Shown here: one piece after another, positions 244 through 63,050 of the stretch
Numbering within the stretch: the stretch's first letter is position 1
How the letters are laid out: each line of letters begins with the position of its first letter
From: Escherichia coli
GTDB taxonomy: Bacteria; Pseudomonadota; Gammaproteobacteria; Enterobacterales; Enterobacteriaceae
Strand: one strand, 5' to 3'
NCBI RefSeq assembly: GCF_011045215.1
Contig: NZ_CP049202.1
DNA: 64,000 nt
The notes under the pieces: model-generated
Database searches by the model: none
Seen by the model: the letters and a program-made list of their open reading frames with translations, nothing else
What the model was told of the DNA's origin: nothing
Translations under genes and position numbers: made by a program

Positions 244-804
244 CTATTTTTCTTCAAGTACAGCCCTGAGCTCTGCTTTTATCCGGTTCTGGCAACGGAT
301 TTTCTCCAGACGCGCTGCCGCATACGCTTCCTCCTCCTGAGAAATATGCTCCGTCACATACCCTTCCGTGTCATACCGGCAGGCACCGGCTTTCATCGCG
401 CCAAGATAGCTTTCTGAACGGGTGATGGCCTTCAGCGCCCTGCGCAGTTTTTTATGCGAGAGCGGGATATTCCGCTGCGCCACGTCTTCCAGTAACACGT
501 CCCGGATACCGCAGGCCAGAAGCCGGGGTGTGTCACCGTCAAATAATCCCGGCCACCAGGGCTTCAGGGTGTTCACAGCCTCATCCAGTGTGGGCAGGTT
601 CAGATAAATGGACAGCGCCTGTCTGGCCTGCGCTTTTTTTGCCGCCAGCTCTGCTTCCCGGGCCGCTTTCTCGGCCAGTTTCTGCTTTTTCACCTTCCAT
701 TTTGGTGGCGTGGTGACATTGATGATGGTTTTCCGGCTGCGGACAGGCGTCTCTCCTTCTGTTTTCCGCTTCAGTGTCAGTACCGGTCGTTTCTGCTCTG
801 TCAT
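244..804 (-). CDS. finO: FinO fertility-inhibition RNA chaperone (186 aa from internal [11 protein letters not shown]...)
   Basis: Translation matches remembered F FinO over its length; ATG at 804 gives the canonical 186 aa; last gene of the tra region. Confidence 0.9.
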
Positions 805-10783: not shown

Positions 10784-11293
10784 TTAACTAACAGATTCTT
10801 TTTTGAACAGACCTATTACTGAGACTATTGCAGAGAGATTATAACGATTTATATCTATAGTATAAATAAAGGAAAAAATTACAAACAGAGTTATCGATAA
10901 AAAACCAAATAAGAACGTATGGGCGAAGGAAACTATTGAAAAAACAATCACAAACAACAAGATATAAGTTTTGTTCTTATCATACATAAAAGATATAACT
11001 TTCGACTCATCTCTGAATTTTTTAGGGATAGCAAGATACAACATCATTCCATTAGTAATGGCAACAAAAAGGATAAACCCCATTACGCCACTAAAACATA
11101 TATCAAATCCGGCATCTCGGATATCAACTTTATCTGCCAGCAAACGGAGAAATGTCGGCCATAATAAAATCCATAAAAATACATACCCCCCTGGCTTTAT
11201 GACTTGTAATAATGGCGGAATATTAACACCCTCTACAGAGAGTACATCCTTTAGTTTCTGTGTCTCCGTTTTTATATCATAGTGAGTAATCAT
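10784..11293 (-). CDS. traS: TraS-like entry-exclusion inner-membrane protein (169 aa)
   Basis: Very hydrophobic, AT-rich ORF between traG and traT, the position of the allele-variable traS; start ATG overlaps traG stop. Confidence 0.55.
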
Positions 11294-16142: not shown

Positions 16143-16688
16143 TTATTTCGCACCTTTTTTCCCTCCGTACATCTGCAGAACGGTATCCATCCGCGCCATA
16201 AAACCAGCGGCATCCGTTGCCCCCTGTAAAAGCGGTAATGCCTCAAGCGTGTTGACGTTGACCAGGAAGGTGGTCGGTGTGGCCACCGGGATATTCGGGA
16301 AGAAGGTCTGCATTACGTCAGGTGGTGCCGGTAATGCCTCCGGAAAAGCCGAATCCCCCTGACCATCCAGGGTGTAGGGAAAAACGGAAAAACCGTACTG
16401 TTGTGCCAGCTGTTTCAGCACCGGGTCAAACTGGTGACAGTAAGGGCAATGTCCCTGCATAAACAGCACCACCTTCCAGTCGGCCAGGTTAACCTGCCTG
16501 CCGTTGCTGAGGCGGAACCAGCGGGGAGCCGTTTTTTCTGTTCTGGCTGACGTACCTGCTGCTGGTTGTGCTGGCTGCGCGGCCATACCCTGCGGATTCC
16601 AGAGTCGTTCAATTTCATCCCGGGTGGAGGCCCGCACACCTGTGGCCATTATCAACAGAATGACCGGCAGTAATTTAGTGAGAGACAT
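16143..16688 (-). CDS. trbB: TrbB periplasmic thioredoxin-like disulfide isomerase (181 aa)
   Basis: Signal peptide plus CPYC thioredoxin-type active-site motif; size and position as F TrbB. Confidence 0.75.
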   Translation of the reverse strand: MSLTKLLPVILLIMATGVRASTRDEIERLWNPQGMAAQPAQPAAGTSARTEKTAPRWFRLSNGRQVNLADWKVVLFMQGHCPYCHQFDPVLKQLAQQYGFSVFPYTLDGQGDSAFPEALPAPPDVMQTFFPNIPVATPTTFLVNVNTLEALPLLQGATDAAGFMARMDTVLQMYGGKKGAK

Positions 16689-16959
16689 GTCCGCCCTCCT
16701 GCTGCCCTTCCATCATGGCCTGTTGCCTGGCTTCCAGTGCCTCACGCTCTTCCCGGCTGACACGTGCAATCCATGCATCCAGCACCTGGTATGCGCCGAA
16801 CAACACAAGGATGGCCGCAATCAACTCCGCCAGAAAAAAAGCCATCCAGGGTTTGCTGTAAACAAGACGGGCGACGATATGAAACCAGACACCCAGGGAA
16901 AATACCCACATTCCCGTAATATCAAGCCGGGGTAAAGAGAATCTGCGTTTACCTATCAT
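16675..16959 (-). CDS. traQ: TraQ pilin chaperone (94 aa)
   Basis: 94-aa membrane protein matching remembered F TraQ. Confidence 0.75.
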   Translation of the reverse strand: MIGKRRFSLPRLDITGMWVFSLGVWFHIVARLVYSKPWMAFFLAELIAAILVLFGAYQVLDAWIARVSREEREALEARQQAMMEGQQEGGHVSH

Positions 16960-35281: not shown

Positions 35282-35593
35282 CTATTTAATCCACTGCCGG
35301 AAACACGAATCGGGAATATTATGAAAAATACCGCGCAGCAGGGCTGTTGGCATATACCAGTAAATCAGGTCACGTAACCAGGAACTGCCCCGCCCCTTTT
35401 TCAGTTTTTTAATCCCGAAATAAACCAGAACCGCTGCACCAATACCGAACAGATATTTCGATGTTGTGATACCCCAGCCAGTACAGATTGCTGCGGGTAT
35501 CAGTTCATCCAGTGGCAGGCCAAAGTAGCGGCTCTGGTTGGTCAGTGTTTCCGGGAAACGATATTTCTTAAGTTTATTCTCGTCTCCCGACAT
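35282..35593 (-). CDS. traL: TraL (VirB3-like), small membrane protein
   Basis: Small hydrophobic ORF directly after traA. Confidence 0.75.
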
Positions 35594-35607: not shown

Positions 35608-35967
35608 TCAGAGGCCAACGACGGCCATACCCACAGCAATAAATACAGAAATGATGGCAAAACCGGCCAGGAACTTGACGTTTTTGGTCATCATGTACAT
35701 GACCGCACCGACCAGAACTTCAGCCAGAACAACCCATTTAACAACACTGGAGTCCTTACCGAAGGTCGCCTTAACCGTGGTGTTACCGCTTGCCATCAGG
35801 TCCTGGCCCTGTGCTGCCATTGCCAGCTGCGGGAAGAACATCATCAGAACAGCAGCCGGGATCACAGCGCGAACCAGGCGAAGCATATTCAGACGAGTGA
35901 ATTTAGAAAAAAACGACTTCTTTTTGACGGGCGCAGAAGCACCCTGAACACTTAAAACGGCGTCCAT
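35608..35967 (-). CDS. traA: TraA propilin (119 aa); predicted mature N-terminus [10 protein letters not shown]...
   Basis: Leader ...FFPQLAMA followed by a mature pilin nearly identical to F pilin apart from the N-terminal residues. Confidence 0.93.
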
Positions 35968-36009
35968 ATGATTCCTCTGTTTAATATTGATAGTAAAAAA
36001 TAAAACTCT

Positions 36010-36225
36010 TTATATATCGTCTATGTCTTCAGCTTCCTCCTTTACTAAAGATGCATTATAAAAGTCGGGAAAACGATTGAGATGATCTTTTAGTCTAATG
36101 AACACCTCATTAGTTTTTGTTCTTCCGCTACGATCCCTGGCTGCTAAAAGTTTCTGATTAGTTGTCTCATCCAGTATTAATAAGACTTTGTTACCTGGTG
36201 CGGCTCTGGTTCTCCCTCTGCTCAC
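36010..36225 (-). CDS. traY: TraY ribbon-helix-helix oriT-binding / PY activator (short, about 71 aa form)
   Basis: Small basic ORF between traJ and traA; RHH-like segment; short form as in R100-type plasmids. Confidence 0.6.
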   Translation of the reverse strand: MSRGRTRAAPGNKVLLILDETTNQKLLAARDRSGRTKTNEVFIRLKDHLNRFPDFYNASLVKEEAEDIDDI

Positions 36226-36360
36226 GTTCCCTCCGCATAATTACTTGAGATAATAAAATATAATCATATAAATCATCTTTAATGAAAACAAAAATAGAGT
36301 AAATTATATTAACAAAAACGGGAACCAATGGTTCCCGCAAAATAACAAAAAGTTAACAGC

Positions 36361-37008
36361 TTATCTTCCCAATATTTCTTTTACTTTAGCATATAAAGGA
36401 AGTATCTTTTCCGTTCTAATCATTTCATCCAACCAGAGATCTCTAGAACTAAATCCATATCGTTTAAATAATTTCATGGTTTTCTTCTTTGATTTAGACA
36501 CAGTGATGTTCATCTTTGCTGATGAATAATGATGGCTAAACCCTATCAGATATGGCTCAATGCCTACATATTCATCAGAGGGTACAATTAATTCATTGGA
36601 GTATTTAGACACAACAAACGATGACAGATTATCATTTGCTACCCAAATAAACCTCCAGATGAAGAAATAGCCGCATGGTGTTATAACACTTTCTATGATC
36701 ACACTCCATAACGTATTATTAAGTAATATGTCATTATTACAATTTACACCATAAATAGAAGAGCATGATTCAATCTCTGCTCTGGATAACTGTAATTTAC
36801 ATTCCAACGTTAAACTATCAAACCATTCATCACATGAATTAAAGGACGATCTGATAAGTTTTTCAAAGCAGTTATTTTCCTTAATAAAAGAACCATCCTC
36901 GAAGCGGATACATACAGGATATTTTAAAAACGAAATAGCCTCTCCAAGACTATGAGGGAAATGCAATTGACTGATGAGTGCTCTTTCTCTACGATCCATC
37001 GCACACAT
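36361..37008 (-). CDS. traJ: TraJ-type activator of the tra operon (about 215 aa from ATG with GGAGG RBS)
   Basis: AT-rich ORF between traM and traY; strong RBS at the chosen ATG; the upstream in-frame extension contains the FinP-target hairpin; identity by position, sequence is divergent. Confidence 0.6.
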
Positions 37009-37085
37009 AGGAACCTCCGTTAAGGATTCTATGGACAGTCGATGCAGGGAGTGGCTGCTCCCTGCATCGGCGATTTTCAGTTTCA
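37005..37085 (+). ncRNA. finP: FinP antisense RNA (approximate), complementary to the traJ leader
   Basis: Perfect 12-bp stem / 6-nt loop hairpin (~37040..37069) immediately upstream of the traJ RBS, where FinP is encoded in F-like plasmids. Confidence 0.4.
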
Positions 37086-37198
37086 ATTTTTAACGTGGCA
37101 TTAACCACGTAATCAATATACTAATTATTCTGATTATTGTCATCAGTTCGAACCATAAAAAACTCTGATATTTGAACAAAGTCAAAATTTATTTCCCT

Positions 37199-37582
37199 TT
37201 ATTCATCATCATTTTTTGGAAAGAACCTTTCCATCTCAACCGACACCTTCTCTCTGATATCTTCAACCATATTGGCATATTCAAACTTCGGGTTTCCGGA
37301 AACATGAGGGCTAAGAGACTCAATACCTAAAATCTTTGCCACTGTTGACTGCGTTTTTACAACACATTCAAGAAGAAGTTTATTAAACTCTGCCTGATTA
37401 AATGCTGATTCTTTTCGTTCCATCTGCGCTTCATAAACTCGCAATCCTAACTCAAGCAACATAGAGGCAATACTTGAATAACTAACATCTTTCTCTTTTG
37501 CTCCCTCTGCTCGCCTCTGCACAGCAATAGCATTTATTTTTTCAGACACATGGTCATTAACATAAACCTGAATTTTGGCCAT
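37199..37582 (-). CDS. traM: TraM relaxosome accessory protein (127 aa)
   Basis: Translation matches remembered TraM (MAKIQVYVNDHV...), 127 aa. Confidence 0.92.
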   Translation of the reverse strand: MAKIQVYVNDHVSEKINAIAVQRRAEGAKEKDVSYSSIASMLLELGLRVYEAQMERKESAFNQAEFNKLLLECVVKTQSTVAKILGIESLSPHVSGNPKFEYANMVEDIREKVSVEMERFFPKNDDE

Positions 37583-37900
37583 AACACACCTTATTTATCT
37601 TCCTAAACAAACAATATGTTTTCGTGCTCTCTATTCTTCACCTTACGACGAATCGCCATTAGATTCATCATACTAAAATTACGATTCACTATACGAATCA
37701 GCAATCATCAAATGACGAATCTAATATAGATTCACGCGCCAAGTAAATAGATGTTTTCAAAAAAATAGTCATTACTGAATCATTGACAATTCGTGATAGA
37801 TTCACTATCGAATCTATCACGAATCCCTGCAATATAATTCAAAATTATATAATATAAATACACTTCATTAATTACATGATTTAAAACACAAATCAGCAAA
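37583..37900. promoter_or_regulatory. traM promoter region with TraM binding-site-like (sbm) inverted repeats
   Basis: AT-rich region with repeated GATTCACTAT / CGAATC motifs in inverted orientation between traM and the nic site. Confidence 0.5.
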
Positions 37901-38000
37901 AACTTGTTTTTGCGTGGGGTGTGGTGCTTTTGGTGGTGAGAACCACCAACCTGTTGAGCCTTTTTGTGGAGTGGGTTAAATTATTTACGGATAAAGTCAC
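37900..38000 (+). other. oriT core; F-type nic site in GCGTGGGGTGT/GGTGCT (nick at about 37922/37923), plus-strand is the transferred strand
   Basis: Sequence TTTTTGCGTGGGGTGTGGTGCTTTTGGTGGTGAGAACCACCAACCTGTTGAGCC matches the F oriT nic region as remembered, including the GGTGGTGAGAACCACC inverted repeat. Confidence 0.8.
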
Positions 38001-40943: not shown

Positions 40944-41102
40944 CTACTTACCGGATTCGTAAGCCATGAAAGCCGCCACCTCCCTGTATCCGTCTCTGTA
41001 ACGAATCTCGCACAGCGATTTTCGTGTCAGATAAGTGAATATCAACAGTGTGAGACACACGATCAACACACACCAGACAAGAGAGCTGCGTGGTAGTTTC
41101 AT
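40944..41102 (-). CDS. hok: Hok-family membrane toxin (52 aa), flmA/hok type
   Basis: [52 protein letters not shown] is near-identical to Hok. Confidence 0.9.
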
Positions 41103-41160
41103 GGCCTTCTTCTCCTTGCGCAAAGCGCGGTAAGAGGCTATCCTGATGTTGTCTAAGCAT
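40948..41160 (-). CDS. mok: Mok-type overlapping reading frame (modulator of killing)
   Basis: 70-aa ORF overlapping hok in a different frame, as in hok/mok/sok loci. Confidence 0.5.
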
Positions 41161-41210
41161 GCAGGGGCCTCGTGGGTTAATGAAAAATTAACTACGGGGC
41201 TTTTGTCCTT
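41130..41210 (+). ncRNA. sok: Sok-type antisense RNA (approximate placement only)
   Basis: Inferred from the conserved hok/sok architecture; not resolved directly from sequence. Confidence 0.3.
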
Positions 41211-41376
41211 CTGCCACACAACACGGCAACAAACCACCTTCACGTCATGAGGCAGAAAGCCTCAAGCGCCGGGCACATCATAGCCCATATCCCTGCACGC
41301 TGACCACACTCACTTTTCCTGAAAATAATCCGCTCATTCAGGCTGTTTACGGGTAATCTGTGTGATTGTTGCCGCA

Positions 41377-42581: not shown

Positions 42582-44540
42582 TCAGGCGGCATCAGCCAGG
42601 TTATCGGTGCGTTCAGTGGCATCCGTCTGTGGGCGTGGTGCACACATCCAGCCAGGCACCCAGCGGTTGTCTTTCATGTGGAACTCTGCATGTTCAGCCG
42701 CATCGCCTTTCTTCATCTTCTCCGCGTCCCGTGCAGCACCGGACAGTCCTGCCTCATTCAGGGCTGCGATAATCTGCGGCTTTTTCAGGTGTCCGAAGAA
42801 GTTTGCTTTTGTCGGCTGCCACCAGTCGCGCATGTGAAAGCCGATGGCGCTTTCCAGCGAATCCAGCGGACTGCGTGACGTGTGACCATACTCACGGGTC
42901 TGAACACCGTGGATGCTGCACGCAGTGCAGAAACTGAGCAGGGACAACAGCACCTCCTGACTGAGTGACAGGAACGTCGCCATGTCCCGTGACCATCCCT
43001 CCGGTAACAGGGCCGCAAGACGGGCTTTTTCTGCCATCATCGCCATGAACGCGGCACCTTCCTTCCCTGACGGCGCATCGCTGGTCAGCGAATAATGTTT
43101 ACATTCCAGGCTGATTTGTGCTGGTTTACTGTACGCTCCGCTGCCAAACACATTCAGGCAGAGCGTCCATGCCAGCAGTGCCAGAGATTTGTCCGGTTGC
43201 TGCATGAGTGCTGTCTGGACTGCCAGCGTGCGTTCGGAAGACATTTTCGTCAGCAGTGGCAGACTGATTTCCTCCACTGATGCTTTCTCCTGCACCTGTT
43301 CCGTGCGGTCAGCGTCATCAGTCGCGTCATCTTCACTGCGCAACTGCACACCACGCTGGACACATACGTTTCCATAACGCCAGGACACCACCACGCCACT
43401 TCCGGCACGCATCTCCGGCGTCCACGCCCTGACCTTCGCCATGCAGTCAATCAGCTTCATTTCTGCTTCCAGCAGGTCGGATTCCTCACACTGATTTTCC
43501 AGCGCGTCGTAACGTGCCATCAGTTCGTTCAGGCGTTCTTCTTCCGCCTCCGTCAGCACAGCTTCCGGCTCCGGCAGACTGCGGTATGTTCCGGCATCCT
43601 CACGGCAGAAACCGACAGGCTCCATACGTCCAGCACACCATTCCCAGCCTTCGGCTTCCCGAAGGTGTTCAGCAACAGCCTGGAGTTTTTCCAGCAGGGC
43701 GGCATCGAGCGCCACGCAGTCCACATAGCCACCCTCGTTGTCGCTGAACAAATCGGTGCGCAGTTCATCTGGCGAGAAGGCATCAGCCCCCACGAAGCGG
43801 AATTTACTGTTCCCCGCCACCACCACTTCACTTTCGGTCACCAGACGACGAATGGTCTGTACTTCCGGTTTTCCGCCCCATCCCGACTGACAGGCAGCTT
43901 CAAACACCTGTACCTGACGTGCGGTGTCGTTCTCCAGCGCCAGCGCCTGACAGTGCTCTGTGGTGATGCGGTCTTCTGCCAGCGCATCGAGGATGACAGG
44001 CGCAAGGTCAGCCAGTTTCAGCATTCGCTGAACGTGGCGGGGTGAATAGCCCAGCAAATCACCGATTTGTGCAGGTGTTTTGCCTTCCTGCGCCATTGCG
44101 CGGAATCCGGCAATCTGTTCGGCAGGGTGCATATCCCGACGATGACCGTTTTCAGTCATTGATGCGGCAGTCGCCAGTTCCTGCGGAATGACCTTCACAC
44201 GGACAGGCCAGTCAGCCGGAATGATGCCACGCTCTGCCAGCATGTTGAGTGCTGCCAGTCGGCGACCACCTGCGGCGACACCGTGGCGGTCACCTGGCAG
44301 GGCATGAACAACCAGATTCTGTAACAGGCCGACACCTTTAATGGAGTCCGCCAGTTCGCTGACGGACTCCGCAGAATACGGCACCGTGCGCACATTCAGC
44401 GGTGACTTAATCAGTGAGGACAGCGGCACGCTCACTTCCTCCGTCTGCGCCAGCAGGGCAGACAGGGCAGTCTCCTGCTCTTTTGACGGTTTACGGCTGG
44501 ATTTACGCTCCGTTTTTGTCTTAGACTCTGTAACTGACAT
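42582..44540 (-). CDS. ParB/Srx-like nuclease-domain protein (652 aa), conserved leading-region protein
   Basis: N-terminal ParB-like motif region (LNVRTVPYSAESVSELADSIKGVGLLQNLVV...GGRRLAAL); large C-terminal domain. Confidence 0.8.
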   Translation of the reverse strand: MSVTESKTKTERKSSRKPSKEQETALSALLAQTEEVSVPLSSLIKSPLNVRTVPYSAESVSELADSIKGVGLLQNLVVHALPGDRHGVAAGGRRLAALNMLAERGIIPADWPVRVKVIPQELATAASMTENGHRRDMHPAEQIAGFRAMAQEGKTPAQIGDLLGYSPRHVQRMLKLADLAPVILDALAEDRITTEHCQALALENDTARQVQVFEAACQSGWGGKPEVQTIRRLVTESEVVVAGNSKFRFVGADAFSPDELRTDLFSDNEGGYVDCVALDAALLEKLQAVAEHLREAEGWEWCAGRMEPVGFCREDAGTYRSLPEPEAVLTEAEEERLNELMARYDALENQCEESDLLEAEMKLIDCMAKVRAWTPEMRAGSGVVVSWRYGNVCVQRGVQLRSEDDATDDADRTEQVQEKASVEEISLPLLTKMSSERTLAVQTALMQQPDKSLALLAWTLCLNVFGSGAYSKPAQISLECKHYSLTSDAPSGKEGAAFMAMMAEKARLAALLPEGWSRDMATFLSLSQEVLLSLLSFCTACSIHGVQTREYGHTSRSPLDSLESAIGFHMRDWWQPTKANFFGHLKKPQIIAALNEAGLSGAARDAEKMKKGDAAEHAEFHMKDNRWVPGWMCAPRPQTDATERTDNLADAA

Positions 44541-51873: not shown

Positions 51874-52307
51874 GTACCGTTTATCACCGTCCGGCTGACC
51901 CTTCAGGCGATGACAGTTACGTGCGACCGTTGTTTGCCGATCGTTGCCAGGCCGGTTTTCCTTCGCCTGCCACTGATTATGCTGAGCAGGAACTGGATCT
52001 GAACAGCTATTGCATCAGCAGACCTGCAGCCACCTTCTTTCTGCGCGCCAGCGGTGAATCGATGAACCAGTCTGGCGTGCAGAATGGTGATCTGCTGGTA
52101 GTGGACAGGGCCGAAAAACCACAACACGGGGACATCGTTATCGCTGAGATCGACGGTGAGTTCACCGTCAAACGACTGCTGTTGCGCCCACGCCCGGCAC
52201 TGGAGCCGGTTTCAGACAGCCCGGAGTTCCGCACACTGTATCCGGAAAACATCTGTATTTTTGGTATTGTCACTCACGTGATACACAGGACGCGGGAGTT
52301 ACGCTGA
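51870..52307 (+). CDS. impA: ImpA/UmuD/MucA-like LexA-type S24 peptidase (145 aa)
   Basis: Ser/Lys dyad context (SGESM...KRLLL), 145 aa; start overlaps the impC stop. Confidence 0.85.
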   Translation: MSTVYHRPADPSGDDSYVRPLFADRCQAGFPSPATDYAEQELDLNSYCISRPAATFFLRASGESMNQSGVQNGDLLVVDRAEKPQHGDIVIAEIDGEFTVKRLLLRPRPALEPVSDSPEFRTLYPENICIFGIVTHVIHRTRELR

Positions 52308-53577
52308 TGTTTGCACTGGCTGATATCAACAGTTTCTACGCCTCATGTGAAAAAGTTTTCCGCCCGAACCTTCGCAACGAACCGGTCATCGTACTCAGCA
52401 ATAACGATGGCTGTGTGATCGCGCGCAGCCCGGAGGCAAAAGCCCTTGGCATCAGAATGGGGCAGCTCTGGTTTCAGGTGAGACAAATGCGCCTGGAGAA
52501 GAAAATACATGTATTTTCCAGCAATTATGCGCTGTACCACAGCATGAGCCAACGGGTTATGGCTGTTCTGGAGTCGCTTTCTCCCGCAGTTGAGCCCTAC
52601 TCAATTGATGAAATGTTCATTGATTTGCGGGGGATAAATCATTGCATCTCTCCGGAGGTTTTTGGTCATCAGCTCAGGGAACAGGTAAAGAGCTGGACAG
52701 GACTCACCATGGGGGTGGGCATTGCGCCTACAAAAACGCTGGCTAAAAGTGCACAGTGGGCAACAAAGCAATGGCCACAGTTTTCCGGTGTGGTCGCGCT
52801 GACGGCAGAAAACCGTAATCGGAGCTTGAAGCTACTGGGGCTGCAGCCAGTTGGTGAGGTCTGGGGAGTAGGACGCAAACTGACGGAAAAGCTGAATGCG
52901 CTGGGTATTAACACAGCACTGCAACTGGCGCAGGCTAACACGGCATTCATCCGGAAAAACTTCAGCGTCATTCTTGAGCGTACGGTACGCGAACTCAACG
53001 GCGAGTCCAGCATATCCCTGGAAGAAGCACCACCGGCAAAACAGCAGATTGTCTGTAGTCGCAGTTTTGGTGAACGAATCACAGACAAAGATGCCATGCA
53101 CCAGGCTGTTGTTCAGTATGCAGAGCGGGCCGCAGAGAAACTACGTGGGGAGCGTCAGTATTGTCGGCAGGTGACGACATTTGTACGGACATCCCCCTTT
53201 GCAGTAAAAGAACCCTGTTACAGCAATGCCGCTGTGGAAAAGCTTTCATTGCCACACAGGACAGCCGGGACATTATTGCCGCCGCATGCAGAGCCTTAAA
53301 CCATGTCTGGCGTGAAGGGTACCGCTATATGAAGGCAGGAGTCATGCTGGCTGATTTCACACCATCGGGTATAGCGCAGCCGGGATTATTTGATGAAATC
53401 CAGCCCCGTAAAAACAGTGAAAAGTTAATGAAAACACTCGATGAACTGAACCAGTCGGGAAAAGGGAAAGTGTGGTTTGCGGGGCGAGGAACCGCCCCTG
53501 AATGGCAAATGAAACGGGAAATGCTATCGCCTTCGTATACAACACAATGGACTGAGATCCCCATTGCTTCATTCTGA
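52307..53577 (+). pseudogene. impB: ImpB/UmuC/MucB-like Y-family polymerase, disrupted by an apparent 1-nt frameshift near 53253..53257
   Basis: N-terminal part (MFALADINSFYASCEKVFRP...) is in one frame to 53299; the conserved C-terminal part (...TQDSRDIIAAA...YTTQWTEIP) is in another frame to 53577; together about 423 codons. Confidence 0.8.
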
Positions 53578-53581
53578 TATA

Positions 53582-54010
53582 TCAGAATAATTTTTTCATT
53601 TTAAGACGCACATCATTCATTGCCTCCTGCACCGAATCAGTAGCAGAAGGAGGCATTTTTTCAACAGATTGCGAAGCACCGAGTTCAGTCAACACAGCTC
53701 TGATATCGGCCTGAGAAGGCTTCCATCCAGTCGTCTGACTGAGTAAGGTTACAACCTGATCTGCTGAAAACTCCTCGCTCAAAATGGCTGTCAGCAATAC
53801 AGGCAGGCGAGGATCAAGTTGGTGTAACGCCATTCCAGAAATAAATGCATTCCGGAACAGCTCACCACGCTCAGAACGCGGAACGGACTCTATCGCTTCC
53901 AAAGTTTGAAAGTCTGCAGCTTTTTCCGGATGCAGATAAAGTGTGTATTTTTTCCTTTTCCGTTCATCGTCCACAATATTACTCCTCTTTGAAAGCCGCG
54001 ATAGCTTCAA
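53582..54010 (-). CDS. parR: ParR/StbB-like centromere-binding protein (start codon reads as TTG in the track; true start uncertain)
   Basis: Small protein downstream of the parM-like gene with similarity to R1 ParR (...LDSIPRSERGELFRNAFISGMALHQ...). Confidence 0.65.
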   Translation of the reverse strand: MKLSRLSKRSNIVDDERKRKKYTLYLHPEKAADFQTLEAIESVPRSERGELFRNAFISGMALHQLDPRLPVLLTAILSEEFSADQVVTLLSQTTGWKPSQADIRAVLTELGASQSVEKMPPSATDSVQEAMNDVRLKMKKLF

Positions 54011-54950
54011 CCAGTGCTGTCTGTGGCGACTCCATCATCACTACTTTTTGCCCAAGATGGTGCCATGCCGTTTTTATCGAATCATAGATCAACGGGGCCC
54101 CACCACCGACAACATAAACACGATTCACATGATGGAAATCACCGAGCTCATTGACTACTTGCTCCCCCAAACTGGCAATAGCCCCCTCAATGGTATTAAG
54201 GACCAGATCAGTTTTTGTTTCGTCATTTATAACCTGCCGAACAAAGTCCGGGTCATTACGACGTTTAATCAATTCATCTGCAACGAGGAAACTGGTATCA
54301 CTGGATGCCATGCGCAATGCACTCATTGCAGCTTTCGTAACTGAAGACACACCAATGCCAGAATTACCATGAATGGCACTTACAGAGTCAAATTGACCAA
54401 CGATAACACCAACATCAAGCGTAGTGCCGCCAATATCAACTACCAGCGATTTTTCGAACTGACCAACTTTATCCACGACCAGACGAGAAAACACAGCTGG
54501 CAATGATTCAGGCATCACATCAACGTGTTCAATGGTGAAAACATCGCCTTTATTAAGACGAATCGGCCTCATTAAATTCTCAATTTTACGCTGAATGTTG
54601 AGTTCATTTTTTTGACACTCTTTCGTATAGAACTCACTGATAGGCAAAGTCACAGTCAATGATACAGGCTGAGGCGCTAATCCACTATTCAGTAAAGCGT
54701 GATGCACAGCTAACAGGTTAACATCCGTATATTGATACTCAATATGAGTCGTAAGAATAGATTGGTTGCTAACTTCATCATACGTGTATTTTTTACCATC
54801 CAGTTCATAGTTAAATGTCTGGCGAATTCCTAACCCGTCAACCTTCCATCCATGACGAAATGAGTTTTGCGACAACGACTTACAGATTTTTCCATTATCA
54901 TTCCATGCCAACTTGATTGTTGTTGAACCATCATCGCAGTATACGTTCAT
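53979..54950 (-). CDS. parM: ParM/StbA actin-like segregation ATPase (323 aa)
   Basis: Actin-fold phosphate motifs (DDGSTTIKL ... VDIGGTTLD ... VVGGGA) and R1 ParM-like sequence. Confidence 0.85.
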   Translation of the reverse strand: MNVYCDDGSTTIKLAWNDNGKICKSLSQNSFRHGWKVDGLGIRQTFNYELDGKKYTYDEVSNQSILTTHIEYQYTDVNLLAVHHALLNSGLAPQPVSLTVTLPISEFYTKECQKNELNIQRKIENLMRPIRLNKGDVFTIEHVDVMPESLPAVFSRLVVDKVGQFEKSLVVDIGGTTLDVGVIVGQFDSVSAIHGNSGIGVSSVTKAAMSALRMASSDTSFLVADELIKRRNDPDFVRQVINDETKTDLVLNTIEGAIASLGEQVVNELGDFHHVNRVYVVGGGAPLIYDSIKTAWHHLGQKVVMMESPQTALVEAIAAFKEE

Positions 54951-55178
54951 CTATAGCCCCTTAAATACTCAATCTGAGTAAATCATTGTTTCTAGTTGCA
55001 AGGTAATACTCAATTTGAGCACTATCATAGTTATGAAATCACAAAACACAAGTATTATTTATTACATCACATAACGCACTTCATATTTCACACTTCATAA
55101 ATATGAACACATATTGACACCTCAGGTTACCGTGTCAAAATATCATCATACTTCACATATCACATTTATGAGGTTGCA
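54951..55178. promoter_or_regulatory. parC-like centromere/promoter region with short iterated repeats between divergent partition operons
   Basis: AT-rich; repeated ATACTCAAT(C/T)TGAG and TTCACA(C/T)TTCATA-like motifs. Confidence 0.45.
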
Positions 55179-55823
55179 ATGATTACTGTAGTTGGTGGGA
55201 ACAAAGGTGGTTCAGGGAAAACTACCATTGCATCAAACCTGGCTATTGCTCTCGCAAATAAAGGAAGGGAAGTCTGCCTGTTAAACGGAGATCTACAACG
55301 AACAGCCGCAAAACATCATGCGGAACGAGAAGCTGCAGGACTGTTACCAGCAATAACCCTTGTTGAGAAATTTGATAACCTGACACAAACACTACAGGCT
55401 CTGAATGAAAAGTTCGATGATGTAATAGTGGATGTCGCAGGAAGAAACTCAAAGGAATTCATAACGAGTGGAGTTGTCGCACATCAAATAATTGCGCCAC
55501 TACAGTGTTCTCAACCAGATCTGGATACTCTTACAGAACTAGAACAACAGATAGACGCAATGCGTAACCTTAACCCGGAACTTAAGGTTTATTGTTTACA
55601 AAGTATGGCAACAACCAATCCGGTTTTGAGGGGAAATGAGAGAAAAGAATTCCTTGAATATCTTGAAGAATTCCCAACAATTCAAGTCCTTGATTCAGTT
55701 ATTTGTTTCAGAAAAGTCTATCGCGATTGCATGAGCAACGGCACCGGTGTAGTAGAAACGAACAATACAGCAGCCAAAGCAGAAATTGAACATTTAATGA
55801 ATGAGGTATTTGGCCCATGGTGA
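55179..55823 (+). CDS. parA: Small ParA/ParF-type Walker ATPase (214 aa)
   Basis: Deviant Walker A GGNKGGSGKTT at the N-terminus; 214 aa. Confidence 0.85.
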   Translation: MITVVGGNKGGSGKTTIASNLAIALANKGREVCLLNGDLQRTAAKHHAEREAAGLLPAITLVEKFDNLTQTLQALNEKFDDVIVDVAGRNSKEFITSGVVAHQIIAPLQCSQPDLDTLTELEQQIDAMRNLNPELKVYCLQSMATTNPVLRGNERKEFLEYLEEFPTIQVLDSVICFRKVYRDCMSNGTGVVETNNTAAKAEIEHLMNEVFGPW

Positions 55824-56092
55824 AGAAACCCAGCCAGCAAGCATTAAACAGAGCTGCAGTTACGGTAGAACAAGCAGAGGCTCTGGCTCAGCGCCTTGCG
55901 GATAAACCATACGGCGCGCCGGAAAAACCCGAACCAGAAAAACAATGTCGGACGACAATCTCTCTTGGTGAAAGCATGCTTGTCACAATAGAAGATCTGG
56001 CATTGAGGAATAAACGCAATGGTAAAGATCCAAAAAATGTAAGTGCCATCGTCAGAGTAGCCCTTGAGCAATACTTAAAAACACTAACGTAA
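55817..56092 (+). CDS. Small ParG/ParB-like RHH centromere-binding partner (91 aa)
   Basis: Small protein overlapping the parA stop; C-terminal RHH-like segment. Confidence 0.55.
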   Translation: MVKKPSQQALNRAAVTVEQAEALAQRLADKPYGAPEKPEPEKQCRTTISLGESMLVTIEDLALRNKRNGKDPKNVSAIVRVALEQYLKTLT

Positions 56093-56229
56093 TAATCAAT
56101 AAGTTATTACTTATGAAATCACACTTGTGAATTCATACTTTTTAAGCACCCTTGCATACAAGAGATCACATATTGCAGTGGTCTCTTTTTTTACAGAATA
56201 AATCACAATTCATAATTATGATTTATGAA

Positions 56230-57039
56230 TTATGCGTGTCTGTTTTTCAGCATTGTGACCGCATCGGACTCAGGCATCGAAAACTGCACCCGGTGCCGTG
56301 CAGCCACATCCAGCGCAAACACCTTCGTGTAGACCTCCGTTGAGCTGATGGACTTATGCCCCATCAGGCTCTGCAGGACCTTCAGTGGTATACCGGCATA
56401 CAGCATGTGCATCGCATGGGAATGGCGGAACGTATGTGGCGTGACCGGGACAGAGAACGTCACACCGTCAGTAGCAGCGGCGGCAACCGCCTCCCCAATC
56501 CAGGTCCTGACCGTTCTGTCCGTCACTTCCCAGATCCGCACTTTCTCTGTCCTGCCTGTTCGTTTATTACGCCGTTCCAGAGGAATTTTCAGTGTTGCCA
56601 CCATCGTCTGCAGCTGACTGACGTACCAGGAGTCGGAGAGCGGAACCAGCCGGTGAGTCTGCTGTCCGGCAGGCGTTCTTCCTGCCGTCCTGGCGGCTTT
56701 TTCGGTCCGCTGCTTCAGAGTGGCCAGCTGCACAAACGGATACGGAGGCGCAAGCGAAAAATCCCCCCGCGTCAGCGCCAGTGCTTCATTAATGCGCGCA
56801 CCGGTGTTCCACAGTGTGGCCAGCAGCATCTTGCGGCGCAGATCCGGGACGTAATGGAGCAGGGCACTCACTTCCGGAGCCAGCAGATATTTCGGCAGTT
56901 CATCATGAACCATCGACATCTGGCGAAGTGCCAGAGCTGCCGGATAATCAATGACAACAGGAAGTTGTGGAGACTGTCCGGCAGAATACACTGCCGGTAC
57001 CCTGGCTGCAGACTGGCTGTGTATAACGGAGCCTGACAT
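56230..57039 (-). CDS. resD: ResD-type tyrosine site-specific recombinase (269 aa)
   Basis: C-terminal tyrosine-recombinase motifs (HTFRHSHA...LMGHKSISSTEVYT); directly downstream of ccdB as in F. Confidence 0.85.
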   Translation of the reverse strand: MSGSVIHSQSAARVPAVYSAGQSPQLPVVIDYPAALALRQMSMVHDELPKYLLAPEVSALLHYVPDLRRKMLLATLWNTGARINEALALTRGDFSLAPPYPFVQLATLKQRTEKAARTAGRTPAGQQTHRLVPLSDSWYVSQLQTMVATLKIPLERRNKRTGRTEKVRIWEVTDRTVRTWIGEAVAAAATDGVTFSVPVTPHTFRHSHAMHMLYAGIPLKVLQSLMGHKSISSTEVYTKVFALDVAARHRVQFSMPESDAVTMLKNRHA

Positions 57040-58118: not shown

Positions 58119-61100
58119 TCAGACGTGATTAAACATAGCTATGACAGGATCTGTCATCTCTGCATCCAGCTCCCAGAGATGGGTCATAATACTTTTAAGC
58201 GGATCATCTGCATCTTCCCGGCAGAACGTGCAGAACATCGTATCATCAGGATAACGGAACAGACGTAAACGGCCAAAAGATGAATTCCGTACCAGTAATG
58301 AGTAATTATCCTGACAGTCCGGAACGAAATATATTGTACAGTTGCCAATCATATATTGAAGAACATGTGGCTGATATCCCTTTTCTGGTTTACTTACTCT
58401 TTTTATGCCAAGTTCATTATGTTTATCAGTGCAATATTCAAGTTCGTATAATTTCCTGGAAAAACAATCACCATACACAATGAGAGTGCAATCTTCTTCT
58501 TTTTTCATAAAAATTTTTACTTTATGAAAAAGTTCATCCAGATTGCCTATATCCTCACTCAACTGACCGCGATTAATAAAGAGTTTCCGGTGAACTGTAT
58601 TAAGTATGTTGTCTGCAATTGTTGTTGAGGGAAAAAATGTCGGATCAATTGTGCGTCCAAGTTTCTTTGCCACACTTTCCTTATCAATGCCAATATTAAT
58701 CCATTGTTTTTCCCAGCGTTCTGAAATTCCAGTATCAGGTGTAAACTCAAACAGAGAAAGAAGATGATCTTTCTTAATATCATCAACAACATTCTGAGAG
58801 ATGTTCATATCAATTCTTCTGAAAAGATCGATGTCTGCTTCTGCCTTTATAATATCTGACTTAATACTTTCTTCAAAAGCGGATATGTACATGTCCAGCG
58901 TTCTGTTAAAGAATACAACTCGCGTAGCATACTCCTCCGATGTCTTCAGAAAGTTTTCTGCTACTTCTGTTGTGCTTTTTGTCAGAGATTTCAGCGTATA
59001 AACAATATTTTTTTTATCAGAAAATGAAAAAATCCCTTCACCGATTGCAGTAACCACTTTCTGGCTGATACGTTGTTCAGATACAGACAGCATTACCGCT
59101 ATATCAGCAAATGCAGGGTATAGTGTGTTTAAATCATCAACACTACTCATATAAATCCGCCCGGAAATAACCGGGCCTTTGTTGTTTCTGGTGAGCCTCT
59201 CCACCATATGAGACAAACGTGAAAACCAGTTACTGTGCTCGTCTGCATGGCAGAAAGTGAGACGTAATATAACATCAATAATATCAGTCTGACCTACTAT
59301 TGCCGAAGGTAGTGTATTATATGCACCAGTTGGGGCGACCAGTGAAGGAGACAGTAACCGTTTGATGACAGTGAGCAAATTGACATTTTTTTGTTGTCCC
59401 AGATACCTCACCATATAAGCTGACAGGAACAGGCGGAGATCAGTCATCACATTACGCATTGTCAGGGATAATGCGGCTTTTTCGTTATACGATGCCCCCC
59501 TCAATATGCAGGACTGACAGTTGTCTGAAACAGAGTGCAATAAAAAATCTGGCGTAAGAAAAAGGCTGTGCCACAGATATTCTTCGTGATAATGATTATG
59601 AAACTGCCCCTGATTAAGCCACAGCATAAACATATCAGTACTCAGATCAGTGGCATCAATATCATCAGATGTTATTGCCGTAATAAGCATTTCCATAGAG
59701 CGAAACAAATGTGATACAAGGGCCTCAGTATAGCCAGCAGTATCAACATTATTCTTAAACGTCAGACGCAACCACATATGCCAGCTTTCCCACTCGCCGA
59801 TAAAATGTTGCAGCATTGCAACATAACGTTGCTTCTGGTTCACTGATAACGCCTTGTTTCCAACATTCCAGTCAATCAGTATCTGCCAGATATCACACTG
59901 GGACTGAAGAGCCTGTTGCAACTCTCCGGTTCTGTCTTCTCCCCGATACCGGTAAAAAGACTGAGGAAGATGTATGATCTTTCGAAAATACGTAGATGTG
60001 GTATCCAGTGTTTTCACCACTTCTTCTGCAAGACGGTAGAAATCATTATGAAAAGACTGGCTTAAACTTTGTGGAAAAAATGAAATGGATACATCATCAA
60101 TATAATTTTTATCACCATACTGGAAACATCTTTTCAGTGTAATAAAGGTCGAAACAAGTCTGTCTGCAGCTTCCTCAAACGCCCCCAGATTTCGTTCATC
60201 CAGAGCATCATAAATTTCCCCATAAAAACCTCTGGTGAAATTTAAAAAATTTGTTTTTTCCCATTTGCTTCCACGGATAAAACAGAGCTTAAACAGCTTC
60301 TCCCAGATAGCATTATATCTGATACCGGTTGTAGCCAGAATAACCACTTCGCTGTTATGTATCCCCCACCCAGGTAAGACTCTGATTCTTGCAGGTCCCG
60401 TTCCGACAGGTTTTAATCTCCTGAGGAGAAACAATAATGGAAGTGTATAGATATCTCTCACACATTCATCCATTTTAAGTTTTAACTTCAGAAGATCAGA
60501 CTTTTCCTTCTCCGGAGAATCATAAACATCAACAGAGACATTCAGCCGTCCCATTTGGTTAATATATCTCCCAGGAAGAGCCAACCAGTTTTTTACCATT
60601 GCTGTTCTGATATGTTGCGCCACGACTTTTGAAATAAAATACTTAAGCATAATTCGATCACGCCGGCGATCATCCAGAACATTCAGGCTCTGAATAAAAA
60701 ACCAGATAGACAAACCAATATTCATGATCATCCAGATTATTGCCACTACAACAAGGCAAATATCAAGGTATTTATCCCCCCGGGCAGACAAAAGTTCACT
60801 CACCAGAATAAATGCAGCAAGGGAAAGACCGCTCAGACCTGCAAACATGTATCCTGAGTAAAGCTGATAGGCCGACTGGATATGCTCACGTGTCGATTTT
60901 TTCTGAAAAAGGACGCTGATCAGACCGACAACTAATGGAAATACAATACCAATGATGGTTAATTGTCCACCCAGCAGATCTGAGAGTCCATCTGGAAGCT
61001 TTTCAATCCCCTTAAAATACTGCCTGCCAAATGGAGCCAAGACCGGCCTCAGATACAAACCAGCAAGTACAATCATTATTGCACCAACCCAGAGAATCAA

Positions 61101-61250
61101 CATAGCCCGCCCATAGTATGTCGAGCACCAGGCCAGCAGGCGCTCAAAAACATTCCAGCGGTATTTTCGATATTCAGAATTCATACGTAAATTATGTCTG
61201 AGCTCACGATCAACAAGACTGTTCACGCTTTTAAACAGTTTACTCAACAT
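58119..61250 (-). CDS. Hypothetical large protein (1043 aa): four N-terminal TM helices plus a ~850-aa soluble region with Cys-rich C-terminus; function unknown
   Basis: Single long ORF, AT-rich by eye; hydrophobic helices at about residues 50-190; no Walker A or other motif I recognise. Confidence 0.7.
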   Translation of the reverse strand: MLSKLFKSVNSLVDRELRHNLRMNSEYRKYRWNVFERLLAWCSTYYGRAMLILWVGAIMIVLAGLYLRPVLAPFGRQYFKGIEKLPDGLSDLLGGQLTIIGIVFPLVVGLISVLFQKKSTREHIQSAYQLYSGYMFAGLSGLSLAAFILVSELLSARGDKYLDICLVVVAIIWMIMNIGLSIWFFIQSLNVLDDRRRDRIMLKYFISKVVAQHIRTAMVKNWLALPGRYINQMGRLNVSVDVYDSPEKEKSDLLKLKLKMDECVRDIYTLPLLFLLRRLKPVGTGPARIRVLPGWGIHNSEVVILATTGIRYNAIWEKLFKLCFIRGSKWEKTNFLNFTRGFYGEIYDALDERNLGAFEEAADRLVSTFITLKRCFQYGDKNYIDDVSISFFPQSLSQSFHNDFYRLAEEVVKTLDTTSTYFRKIIHLPQSFYRYRGEDRTGELQQALQSQCDIWQILIDWNVGNKALSVNQKQRYVAMLQHFIGEWESWHMWLRLTFKNNVDTAGYTEALVSHLFRSMEMLITAITSDDIDATDLSTDMFMLWLNQGQFHNHYHEEYLWHSLFLTPDFLLHSVSDNCQSCILRGASYNEKAALSLTMRNVMTDLRLFLSAYMVRYLGQQKNVNLLTVIKRLLSPSLVAPTGAYNTLPSAIVGQTDIIDVILRLTFCHADEHSNWFSRLSHMVERLTRNNKGPVISGRIYMSSVDDLNTLYPAFADIAVMLSVSEQRISQKVVTAIGEGIFSFSDKKNIVYTLKSLTKSTTEVAENFLKTSEEYATRVVFFNRTLDMYISAFEESIKSDIIKAEADIDLFRRIDMNISQNVVDDIKKDHLLSLFEFTPDTGISERWEKQWINIGIDKESVAKKLGRTIDPTFFPSTTIADNILNTVHRKLFINRGQLSEDIGNLDELFHKVKIFMKKEEDCTLIVYGDCFSRKLYELEYCTDKHNELGIKRVSKPEKGYQPHVLQYMIGNCTIYFVPDCQDNYSLLVRNSSFGRLRLFRYPDDTMFCTFCREDADDPLKSIMTHLWELDAEMTDPVIAMFNHV

Positions 61251-61929: not shown

Positions 61930-63050
61930 ATGGGTAACGCAATGCACTCTCTTAAGACACTTCTACAGTTACCTTGCAGATGGCAATGCAGTCGACAAAT
62001 AATTAGCTCTGACGGTATAACCCTCCATCTCCGCGGAAAACGCAAAACAGCACAATGCCCTGAATGCTTTAAGCGTAGCGATTCTGTTCATAGTTGTCGC
62101 CGGCTGGATACAGCATCTACCCTGTGCAGGCCAGACGCTATGGCTTGTATTTTCCGTCCGCCACTAGTACTGCCGTAACCCAGCTTGTTCACGTAAAATT
62201 TTTGCCGAGTCGCTTGCTCCCTTCGCCGGTTCACACCAGCAGTCTTCACTGGCATTACAAAATTTGCAACGTCAACTGGGATTAATAGCCGGAGGTGAGG
62301 CCGGAAAACGAGCAGCAACGGCAGTGGGTCTCCGTTGCAGTGCAGATACTCTTCTTCGCAGGGTTATCAATACCCCGGAGACGAGACTGTCAGGCGCGCT
62401 CCATGTCAGTATTAATGAGTGGAGGTGGCCATCGGGGCCACCGTTACGGTACGTTAATTGTCAATCTTGATACTCACCGTCCCCTCGCCCTGCTTCCCGG
62501 CCGTGAGCAGTGTACACTGGCCACCAGGTTCAGAAAATATCCGGAAATACAGGTTGTCTCGCGTGATCGTAGTGGAGTCTATGCGACAGCAGCATGTGAG
62601 GGTGCACCTCAGGCCAGGCAGGTGGCTGATCGATGGCATCTGCTAAATAATATTGACGATGCGCCTGAACGAATGATGTACAGACATATACCTCTGATAC
62701 TCTTGTTGCCCCAAAGAAATCACCTGAGCCATAACTGCCTGTGCCTGCAGCATCGCTCCGTTGTCCGGAATGCCTTAAACAGCAAACCAGCAAAAAACGG
62801 CATCAGCGTTGGACAAAGGTTATGGCCCTGCATAACAAGGGATGTAGTTTCAGGGAAATATCCCGTATTACAAGCCTGCCGCGTGTGACAGTCAGTCGCT
62901 GGGTGCGTTCAGGAACATTCCCTGAAATGTCAACCATGCCTCCAAAGCGAGGGCTTCTGGCCTCATTTAGAGAGTGGTTAAAAGAGCAACGAGAAAGTGG
63001 TAATTATAACGCCAGCCGGATATGGCGGCCCGGGGTTTACAGGCAGTGAA
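61930..63050 (+). mobile_element. Decayed ISL3-family-like transposase gene (multiple frameshifts), IS remnant
   Basis: Fragments in three frames: N-terminal zinc-finger-like CPECFKRSDSVHSCRRLD, central ...VSINEW... and DRWHLL (cf. ISL3 DRFH motif), then an HTH-like segment. Confidence 0.45.

What the first reader, a model, noticed from the sequence alone, without database searches (positions are those of the whole stretch)
35608..35967. Pilin N-terminus of the AQGQDL type rather than F-type AGSSGQDL
The predicted mature pilin differs from F pilin essentially only at its N-terminus. This region determines pilus serology and sensitivity to some pilus-specific phages, and from memory the AQGQDL form corresponds to a ColB2-like pilin group.
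Basis: established knowledge. Interest (0 to 1): 0.2.

Follow-up and report, generated by a model that had tools for sequence, protein, structure and literature searches.

The report
Common AQGQDL-type F-like pilin gene
This is an intact gene for the sex-pilus subunit of an F-like conjugative plasmid, carrying a well-known and very common natural variant of the exposed N-terminal tip (AQGQDL instead of F's AGSSGQDL); it is ordinary.

Summary
Window 35608-35967 (minus strand) is an intact 119-codon traA gene (Pfam TraA, E=1e-65). It sits in a complete traM-to-traX/finO F-like transfer operon.

Compared with F propilin:
- The 51-residue leader has two substitutions (N2D, A32V).
- The mature pilin starts AQGQDL instead of AGSSGQDL.
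- The other 64 mature residues are identical.

At DNA level the change is a tight patch: 5 mismatches plus a 6-nt indel in 18 columns. The following 192 nt have only 2 synonymous differences.

The variant is not rare. The exact protein occurs on 393 public contigs. Its F-leader twin is Swiss-Prot PIL6_ECOLX, on at least 1000 contigs. At least 819 PLSDB plasmids encode residues 33-119 exactly.

The changed residues fall in the flexible, surface-exposed N-terminal tail. That tail is unresolved in F-pilus cryo-EM and was proposed to reach into the phage MS2 maturation protein. It is also the most variable segment of the family.

The pilin is not F-type or R100-type. The "ColB2-like (group II)" label agrees with my recollection, but the primary papers are not in the library, so I could not check it. 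The IIa/IIb subgroup (a common variant adds a C-terminal Lys) stays unresolved.

Already known; low interest.

The parts
35608..35967 (-). traA CDS, a 119-codon propilin plus TGA stop
   Evidence: ORF list; Pfam TraA E=1.3e-65; 97% identity to F TraA in the alignment (95.9% by tblastn); full-length alignment
35815..35967 (-). 51-residue leader peptide (M1-A51), ending Ala-Met-Ala before the signal-peptidase site; N2D and A32V relative to F
   Evidence: Alignment to F propilin. F is cleaved between Ala51 and Ala52 (PMC7555446). The cleavage site here is inferred by homology.
35611..35814 (-). Mature pilin, 68 aa ([10 protein letters not shown]...AVVGL), with no C-terminal Lys
   Evidence: mature part identical to Swiss-Prot PIL6_ECOLX
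35803..35814 (-). Variable N-terminal patch, codons 52-55 (GCA CAG GGC CAG = A-Q-G-Q), replacing F's GCC GGC AGC AGT GGT CAG (A-G-S-S-G-Q)
   Evidence: DNA alignment A1. Five mismatches plus a 6-nt gap in 18 columns, against 2/192 downstream. This is the highest-entropy, length-variable segment of the family.
35973..35978 (-). Shine-Dalgarno-like AGAGGA, with the GAGG core 6 nt upstream of the traA ATG
   Evidence: Read from the sequence...AACAGAGGAATCAT ATG
36010..36225 (-). traY (short 71-aa form, GTG start), immediately upstream of traA
   Evidence: Pfam TraY E=1.8e-22; 69% identity to R100 TraY, 53% to F; exact protein on >=1000 contigs
35282..35593 (-). traL, immediately downstream of traA
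   Evidence: Pfam TraL; 97% identity to F TraL
16675..16959 (-). traQ, the pilin chaperone needed for propilin membrane insertion
   Evidence: tblastn with F TraQ: 98.9% over 94/94 aa at 16959-16678; role from PMC7555446
859..1605 (-). traX, the acetylase that N-acetylates the mature pilin's Ala1
   Evidence: Intact 248-aa ORF; 87% identity to F and R100 TraX over 228 aa; role from PMC7555446
37002..37110 (.). FinP antisense RNA (37002-37077, + strand) and traJ 5' UTR (37003-37110, - strand). Together with finO (247-804, - strand) this is the fertility-inhibition control that gates traA expression.
   Evidence: Rfam RF00107 at 93.9 bits and RF00243 at 112.5 bits; FinO 94% identical to R100 FinO over 186/186 aa

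Best explanation
This is a functional traA gene of an F-like (MOBF12 group A / MPF-F) conjugative plasmid. It encodes the AQGQDL allele of the F-family pilin.

The likely pathway is inferred by homology to F. The 119-aa propilin is inserted into the inner membrane with the help of TraQ. Host leader peptidase cleaves it after Ala-Met-Ala51. TraX acetylates the new Ala1. The 68-aa pilin is then polymerised with phospholipid by the TraL/E/K/B/V/C/W/U/F/H/G machinery encoded in the same operon.

The helical body that builds the pilus wall and lumen is identical to F pilin. Only the short, flexible, surface-exposed N-terminal tail differs: Ac-A-Q-G in place of Ac-A-G-S-S-G before Q-D-L. The expected consequence is therefore a change of surface epitope (serotype). 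At most there would be a modulation of attachment by pilus-side-binding RNA phages. Pilus assembly and DNA transfer should not change.

The allele is one of the two commonest in sequenced Enterobacteriaceae plasmids. From recollection, it corresponds to the classical ColB2-like group II.
For: Shown by tools:
- Intact ORF with a full-length Pfam TraA match.
- Canonical position traY-traA-traL-traE-traK-traB.
- Complete tra operon including traQ (98.9% to F) and an intact traX.
- FinP, traJ 5' UTR and finO are present.
- The mature sequence is identical to F from Q-D-L onward.
- F-pilus PDB chains 5ler/6nm5 start at QDL, so the differing residues lie in the unmodelled tail.
- PMC6635492 states that AGSSG is flexible and may insert into a hydrophobic pocket of MS2 Mat. 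The Mat-contact residues it names (F Asp7, Asp23, Ala18) are conserved here.
- The N- and C-termini lie on the pilus exterior (PMC7555446).

Frequency:
- The exact protein is on 393 contigs.
- The F-leader version is Swiss-Prot PIL6_ECOLX, on >=1000 contigs.
- 819 PLSDB plasmids match residues 33-119 exactly.

The N-terminal patch is the family's hypervariable, length-variable segment.
Against: - Nothing contradicts the gene call.
- The ColB2 label could not be checked against the prototype sequence.
- The window's traM/traJ/traY/traS alleles are not Swiss-Prot prototype sequences. TraJ is only 25% identical to F TraJ. So the plasmid is not simply ColB2, or at least cannot be shown to be.
- With finO intact and FinP present, pili are probably made only transiently (inference).
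- Any phenotypic effect on phage sensitivity is inferred, not shown.
Confidence: 0.9

Rival explanations
1. The pilin belongs to the second historical subgroup (IIb, R124-like, or the type deposited as PIL6_ECOLX), not to ColB2 proper (IIa). Under this reading the ColB2 prototype would be the AQGQDL form with an extra C-terminal lysine, or the AQGQDLMQSGNS form.
For: AQGQDL pilins come in at least three common natural forms. The first ends ...VVGL, like this window (P0001 on >=1000 contigs, P0002 on 393). The second ends ...VVGLK (P0004 on 701 contigs, P0149 on 112, P0038 on 119). The third has A8Q/T12S (P0179 on 567 contigs). The literature separates IIa (ColB2) from IIb (R124) (PMC2836999). 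R100 is PIL5_ECOLX and F is PIL1_ECOLI, so PIL6_ECOLX may be a later deposit than ColB2 (weak inference).
Against: I have no sequence for ColB2 or R124. None of the +Lys variants I looked up is a Swiss-Prot representative.
Confidence: 0.35
2. The N-terminal difference is functionally neutral for phages. It changes only antigenicity, and MS2/R17, Q-beta and f1 sensitivity equal those of F pili.
For: All residues named as MS2 Mat contacts or as phage-resistance sites (F Asp7, Asp23, Ala18) and the whole C-terminus are identical to F. The N-terminal density assignment in PMC6635492 is tentative ('may correspond').
Against: PMC6635492 suggests that the absence of the five-residue tail contributes to weak MS2 binding to pED208 pili. 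PMC3245843 says natural TraA types alter phage sensitivity. The concentration of non-synonymous change and indels in this patch suggests selection on it.
Confidence: 0.5
3. The gene is a decaying or silent remnant and no pilus is made.
For: finO is intact and FinP is present, which predicts repression. A ~1.55 kb foreign insert lies inside the operon between traC and trbI.
Against: traA and all 30-plus tra/trb genes compared are present, mostly at 87-100% identity to F or R100 (the lower ones being known allele-specific genes), and all ORFs examined are intact. trbI is an intact 126-aa ORF beside the insert. The RBS is good. Repression by FinOP is the normal state of wild F-like plasmids (PMC7690428).
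Confidence: 0.04

Closest known systems
F plasmid pilin TraA (PIL1_ECOLI; group I; PDB 5LER, 6NM5, 9MOQ)
   Same: Same gene position, same leader length (51 aa) and the same Ala-Met-Ala cleavage motif. The mature residues D-L-M-A-S-G to V-V-G-L are identical (64 aa). The downstream DNA is 99% identical.
   Different: The mature N-terminus is AQGQ versus AGSSGQ, two residues shorter. The leader has N2D and A32V. The upstream traY/traJ/traM cassette is strongly divergent.
Swiss-Prot PIL6_ECOLX (119-aa TraA, AQGQDL type)
   Same: The mature pilin is 100% identical (68 aa), with the same length and the same C-terminus without Lys.
   Different: Two leader residues differ (N2/A32 there, D2/V32 here). 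I could not establish from the tools which plasmid that entry comes from.
ColB2 pilin (traA subtype IIa; Finlay et al. 1984, Frost et al. 1985)
   Same: By recollection only: an F-like pilin whose acetylated N-terminus reads Ala-Gln-Gly-Gln-Asp-Leu. The subtype's existence is confirmed in PMC2836999 and PMC3245843.
   Different: ColB2 may carry a C-terminal Lys or other differences (the IIa versus IIb question). The window's regulatory alleles do not show that the plasmid is ColB2.
R100 / R100-1 pilin (PIL5_ECOLX; group IV)
   Same: Same family, same 119-aa length and same leader architecture.
   Different: 90% identity in the alignment (88% by tblastn). The N-terminus is AGKGDLMAKGND, with further substitutions (V75I, A101V, A115S and several leader changes).
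AQGQDL pilins with a C-terminal Lys (e.g. A0A1D6XU55_ECOLX, 120 aa)
   Same: Identical mature sequence through ...VVGL.
   Different: One extra C-terminal lysine, on the exposed C-terminus. The window lacks it.

Membership tests
F-type conjugative pilin TraA (Pfam PF05513) | Full-length match to the TraA profile above the curated cut-off | tested here: met
   E=1.3e-65, 219.2 bits against a cut-off of 22.6; residues 1-117 match profile positions 1-118 of 118
F-type conjugative pilin TraA (Pfam PF05513) | Long (~51 aa) leader ending in an Ala-X-Ala signal-peptidase site, followed by a ~68-70 aa hydrophobic mature pilin | tested here: met
   Column-for-column alignment with F propilin...[12 protein letters not shown]. 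The F cleavage site Ala51/Ala52 is given in PMC7555446.
F-type conjugative pilin TraA (Pfam PF05513) | Located between traY and traL at the head of an MPF-F transfer operon that also encodes TraQ and TraX | tested here: met
   the gene order traM-traJ-traY-traA-traL-traE-traK-traB...traQ...traX-finO is complete
F-type conjugative pilin TraA (Pfam PF05513) | Processed, N-acetylated and polymerised into a pilus | not testable with these tools
   Needs expression, mass spectrometry and electron microscopy
Group I (F-type) pilin | Mature N-terminus AGSSGQDL | tested here: not met
   The window has AQGQDL, two residues shorter
Group IV (R100-1-type) pilin | Sequence identity with R100 TraA (AGKGDLMAKGND...MSVVGL) | tested here: not met
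   90% identity in the alignment (88% by tblastn), with a different N-terminus and internal substitutions
Group III (R1-type) pilin | Sequence identity with R1/R1-19 TraA | not tested
   R1 (KY749247) is not in the collections. The common AGKGTDL...VAGF type (P0129), possibly R1-like, is 86% identical, but its identity with R1 was not verified.
Group II (ColB2-like) pilin | Mature N-terminus Ala-Gln-Gly-Gln-Asp-Leu on an otherwise F-like pilin (definition recalled from Finlay 1984 and Frost 1985) | tested here: met
   The motif and the F-identical remainder are present. The link between the motif and ColB2 is from memory only, because the primary papers are not held.
Group II (ColB2-like) pilin | Identity with the ColB2 prototype TraA, including the C-terminus (subgroup IIa versus IIb/R124) | not testable with these tools
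   No ColB2 or R124 sequence is reachable. Natural AQGQDL forms with and without the C-terminal Lys both exist.
Group II (ColB2-like) pilin | Reacts with anti-ColB2 pilus serum and not with the antibody specific for the N-terminus of F pilin | not testable with these tools
   Serological experiment

The most novel reading that the evidence does not exclude
The short N-terminal tail of F-family pilins may be a diversifying-selection hotspot driven by pilus-binding RNA phages and/or host antibodies. Under this reading the AQG tail, two residues shorter than AGSSG, measurably weakens docking into the hydrophobic pocket of the MS2/R17 maturation protein. Plasmids carrying it, including this one, would gain partial protection at no cost to conjugation.
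Probability: 0.2. Interest if true: 0.35.

Novelty: already known. Interest (0 to 1): 0.08.

Why it matters
It matters little beyond annotation. The allele tells which pilus serotype the plasmid would display. It flags that antibodies or phage-based tools raised against the N-terminus of F pilin may not recognise these pili. Because the pilus body is identical to F, conjugation mechanics should be unchanged. The only mildly useful general point is that the exposed N-terminal tail is the family's hypervariable spot. That makes natural alleles such as this one convenient material for testing the proposed contact between the MS2 maturation protein and the pilin N-terminus.

Tried and rejected
- **Primary papers.** I tried to read Finlay 1984 (PMC214732), Frost 1985 (PMC219321), Frost 1994 (PMC372961) and Anthony 1999 (PMC94017). 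None is held.
- **Sequence strings in full text.** A search for AQGQDL, AGSSGQDL and Ala-Gln-Gly-Gln gave no relevant paper. Searches for 'ColB2 pilin', R124 and JEL92/93 gave nothing with sequence or serology detail.
- **Swiss-Prot names.** I tried to identify the ColB2 entry through UniRef and Swiss-Prot names. F is PIL1_ECOLI, R100 is PIL5_ECOLX, and AQGQDL with the F leader is PIL6_ECOLX. The tools do not say which plasmid PIL6 comes from, and none of the +Lys variants is a Swiss-Prot representative. In one search the output rows were in a different order from my input. I first attributed PIL6_ECOLX to the window's exact protein and corrected this after reading the sequences.
- **ColB2 attribution through neighbouring genes.** The window's TraJ, TraY, TraM and TraS all carry only generic E. 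coli names.
- **R1.** Accession KY749247 is not in the collections.
- **Exact source record.** There is no 100% DNA match in PLSDB or in complete E. coli genomes. The best match is 99.4% for traA and 98.5% for the 6-kb neighbourhood.
- **Antisense ORF.** The 98-aa ORF at 35651-35947 (+ strand) overlaps a strongly supported gene and has no support of its own, so I rejected it as spurious.
- **Pseudogene reading.** Rejected.

Full report
**1. What is at the coordinates**

Window 35608-35967 is an ORF on the minus strand. Its ATG is at 35965-35967 and its TGA at 35608-35610, and it encodes 119 aa. An AGAGGA Shine-Dalgarno-like site precedes it, with the GAGG core six bases upstream of the ATG.

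The product matches Pfam TraA (PF05513) end to end, with E=1.3e-65. Its neighbours are:
- traY (36010-36225) and traL (35282-35593);
- traE, traK and traB downstream;
- traJ and traM upstream;
- an SLT transglycosylase gene on the other strand.

A tblastn of all F and R100 Tra proteins against the window shows the entire transfer operon on the minus strand. It runs from traM (37582) to traX (about 889) and finO (804-247). It includes traQ (98.9% identical to F), which encodes the pilin chaperone, and an intact 248-aa traX, which encodes the pilin acetylase. Rfam finds FinP and the traJ 5' UTR at 37002-37110. By the criteria of PMC5102898 this is a classical group A F-like system, with TraM, TraJ, FinO and TraC all present.

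**2. The observation**

I aligned the product to full-length F propilin from two sources: PDB 9moq_A, and traA of NC_002483. The propilin differs at N2D and A32V in the 51-residue leader. After the Ala-Met-Ala cleavage motif the window reads A-Q-G-Q-D-L where F reads A-G-S-S-G-Q-D-L. Every later residue, 64 in all, is identical. The cleavage site itself is inferred from F, where it lies between Ala51 and Ala52 (PMC7555446).

At DNA level the difference is sharply local:

| Segment | Difference from F |
|---|---|
| Leader (153 nt) | 8 mismatches |
| N-terminal patch (18 columns) | 5 mismatches plus a 6-nt gap |
| Remaining 192 nt | 2 mismatches, both synonymous |

The two alleles are not related by a simple in-frame deletion. 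The codons are GCA CAG GGC CAG here and GCC GGC AGC AGT GGT CAG in F.

A sliding identity profile shows the wider context. The oriT-proximal cassette traM-finP-traJ-traY (about 38000-35980) is strongly divergent from both F and R100. TraJ is 25% identical to F TraJ, and TraY is 53% identical to F and 69% to R100. From traA onward the DNA is 97-100% F-like. So traA sits at the edge of a typical mosaic junction.

**3. How common it is**

- The window's exact protein (D2/V32 leader) is in the public protein collection as A0A0Q3EMS5_ECOLX, on 393 contigs.
- The same pilin with the F leader is the Swiss-Prot entry PIL6_ECOLX, on at least 1000 contigs (sequence assignment checked).
- A tblastn of residues 33-119 against PLSDB finds 819 plasmids with an exact match among at least 5000 TraA-bearing plasmids. 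The hosts are E. coli, Klebsiella, Salmonella and Shigella.
- The DNA itself has no 100% match in PLSDB or in complete E. coli genomes. The best is 99.4% for traA and 98.5% for the surrounding 6 kb. The source plasmid is therefore not in those collections, but it is an ordinary member of a large family.

**4. The variable segment in family context**

Among database relatives the residues between the cleavage site and the invariant D-L-M take many forms. Examples are AQGQ, AGSSGQ, ASSSGQ, SGSQ, SGGQ, AGKG (R100), AGKGT, SVGQGT and SGGAQ (Salmonella).

In an alignment of 106 distinct near-full-length variants, these columns carry the indels of the mature part (apart from the optional C-terminal Lys). 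Together with mature residue 12, they also carry its highest entropy. The hydrophobic body is almost invariant.

AQGQDL pilins themselves occur in three frequent forms:
- ending ...VVGL, as here;
- ending ...VVGLK;
- with A8Q/T12S.

**5. How it most likely works**

This section is inferred by homology to F, with the supporting steps cited.
- TraQ-assisted membrane insertion, leader-peptidase cleavage after Ala51 and TraX acetylation of Ala52 give the mature pilin (PMC7555446).
- Both termini lie on the outside of the assembled pilus.
- The solved F-pilus chains (5ler, 6nm5) begin at Q-D-L, so the residues that differ here are exactly those that are not modelled.
- PMC6635492 states that AGSSG is flexible in the free pilus. 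In the MS2-bound pilus, extra density from one pilin N-terminus reaches a hydrophobic pocket of the maturation protein. The authors suggest that the lack of these residues in pED208 pilin contributes to weak MS2 binding.
- The contact or resistance residues they name (F Asp7, Asp23, Ala18) are all conserved in the window's pilin.

I therefore expect a pilus mechanically identical to the F pilus, with a different surface epitope. MS2/R17 attachment would be changed modestly at most.

Expression is probably repressed most of the time, because finO is intact and FinP is present. FinOP repression is the norm for wild F-like plasmids (PMC7690428).

**6. Comparison with the known groups**

The held literature confirms traA subtypes I (F, ColVBtrp), IIa (ColB2), IIb (R124), III (R1) and IV (R100) (PMC2836999). 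It also confirms that five pilin types with different phage sensitivity are recognised (PMC3245843).

Tested here:
- The window is not group I. The N-terminus differs.
- The window is not group IV. R100 TraA is 90% identical in the alignment (88% by tblastn) and starts AGKGDL.
- R1 could not be fetched.

That AQGQDL is the ColB2 N-terminus agrees with my own recollection of Finlay et al. 1984 and Frost et al. 1985. Those papers and later reviews are not in the library, and no held paper prints the sequence. The label therefore remains a well-founded recollection and has not been tested here.

The IIa/IIb subgroup, possibly tied to the C-terminal Lys variant, is unresolved. The window's TraJ, TraY, TraM and TraS alleles are common E. 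coli proteins with generic names and give no link to ColB2 itself.

**7. Verdict**

The feature is a known, very common pilin allele in an ordinary F-like transfer operon. It is already known and of low interest.

Noticed in passing
window 24690-26260: A ~1.55 kb insert lies inside the tra operon between traC (26261-28906) and an intact trbI (24307-24687). F and R100 have these two genes overlapping. The insert carries a 312-aa ORF on the opposite strand (24940-25878; a 91-aa ORF starts at 24771) and a 159-aa, hydrophobic-looking ORF (25822-26301, overlapping the traC end). Neither has a Pfam or PADLOC match. Only 24 of 3685 PLSDB plasmids matching this region cover at least 80% of it.
   Followed up: partly
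window 58119-61250 (- strand): A 1043-aa ORF has no Pfam or PADLOC family. It is 99.9% identical in DNA in 44 PLSDB plasmids, mostly ~86-90 kb E. coli plasmids from cattle faeces such as CP057013, and is annotated there only as a hypothetical protein.
   Followed up: partly
window 35980-38000: The oriT-proximal regulatory cassette (traM, finP, traJ, traY) is a distinct allele set. TraJ (215 aa, starting MCAMDRRE at 37008) is only 25% identical to F TraJ and 23% to R100 TraJ, and has no Pfam hit. TraM is ~82% identical to both, and TraY is the short 71-aa form. DNA identity to F jumps from ~40% to over 90% at the start of traA. TraS (10784-11293) is likewise a distinct allele, 27% identical to F.
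   Followed up: partly
window 247-804 and 37002-37077: finO is intact (94% identical to R100 FinO over 186 aa) and FinP is detected by Rfam. Unlike F itself, this plasmid should therefore be transfer-repressed.
   Followed up: no
database relatives of TraA (P0004, P0149, P0038; P0044, P0097, P0102): A frequent AQGQDL pilin variant carries one extra C-terminal Lys (120 aa; 701, 112 and 119 contigs for three leader versions). Other relatives have 11-13-residue insertions or duplications in the leader (130-132 aa, for example [10 protein letters not shown] repeated).
   Followed up: partly
window 41100-41271; 42582-44540; 52307-57039; 62295-62888: The rest of the window is ordinary IncF leading-region and maintenance content: sok antisense RNA (Rfam), a 652-aa ParB-domain protein, an IMS/UmuC-family ORF of 330 aa (possibly truncated), ParM, a ParA-like ATPase, a tyrosine recombinase and an ISL3 transposase fragment.
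   Followed up: no
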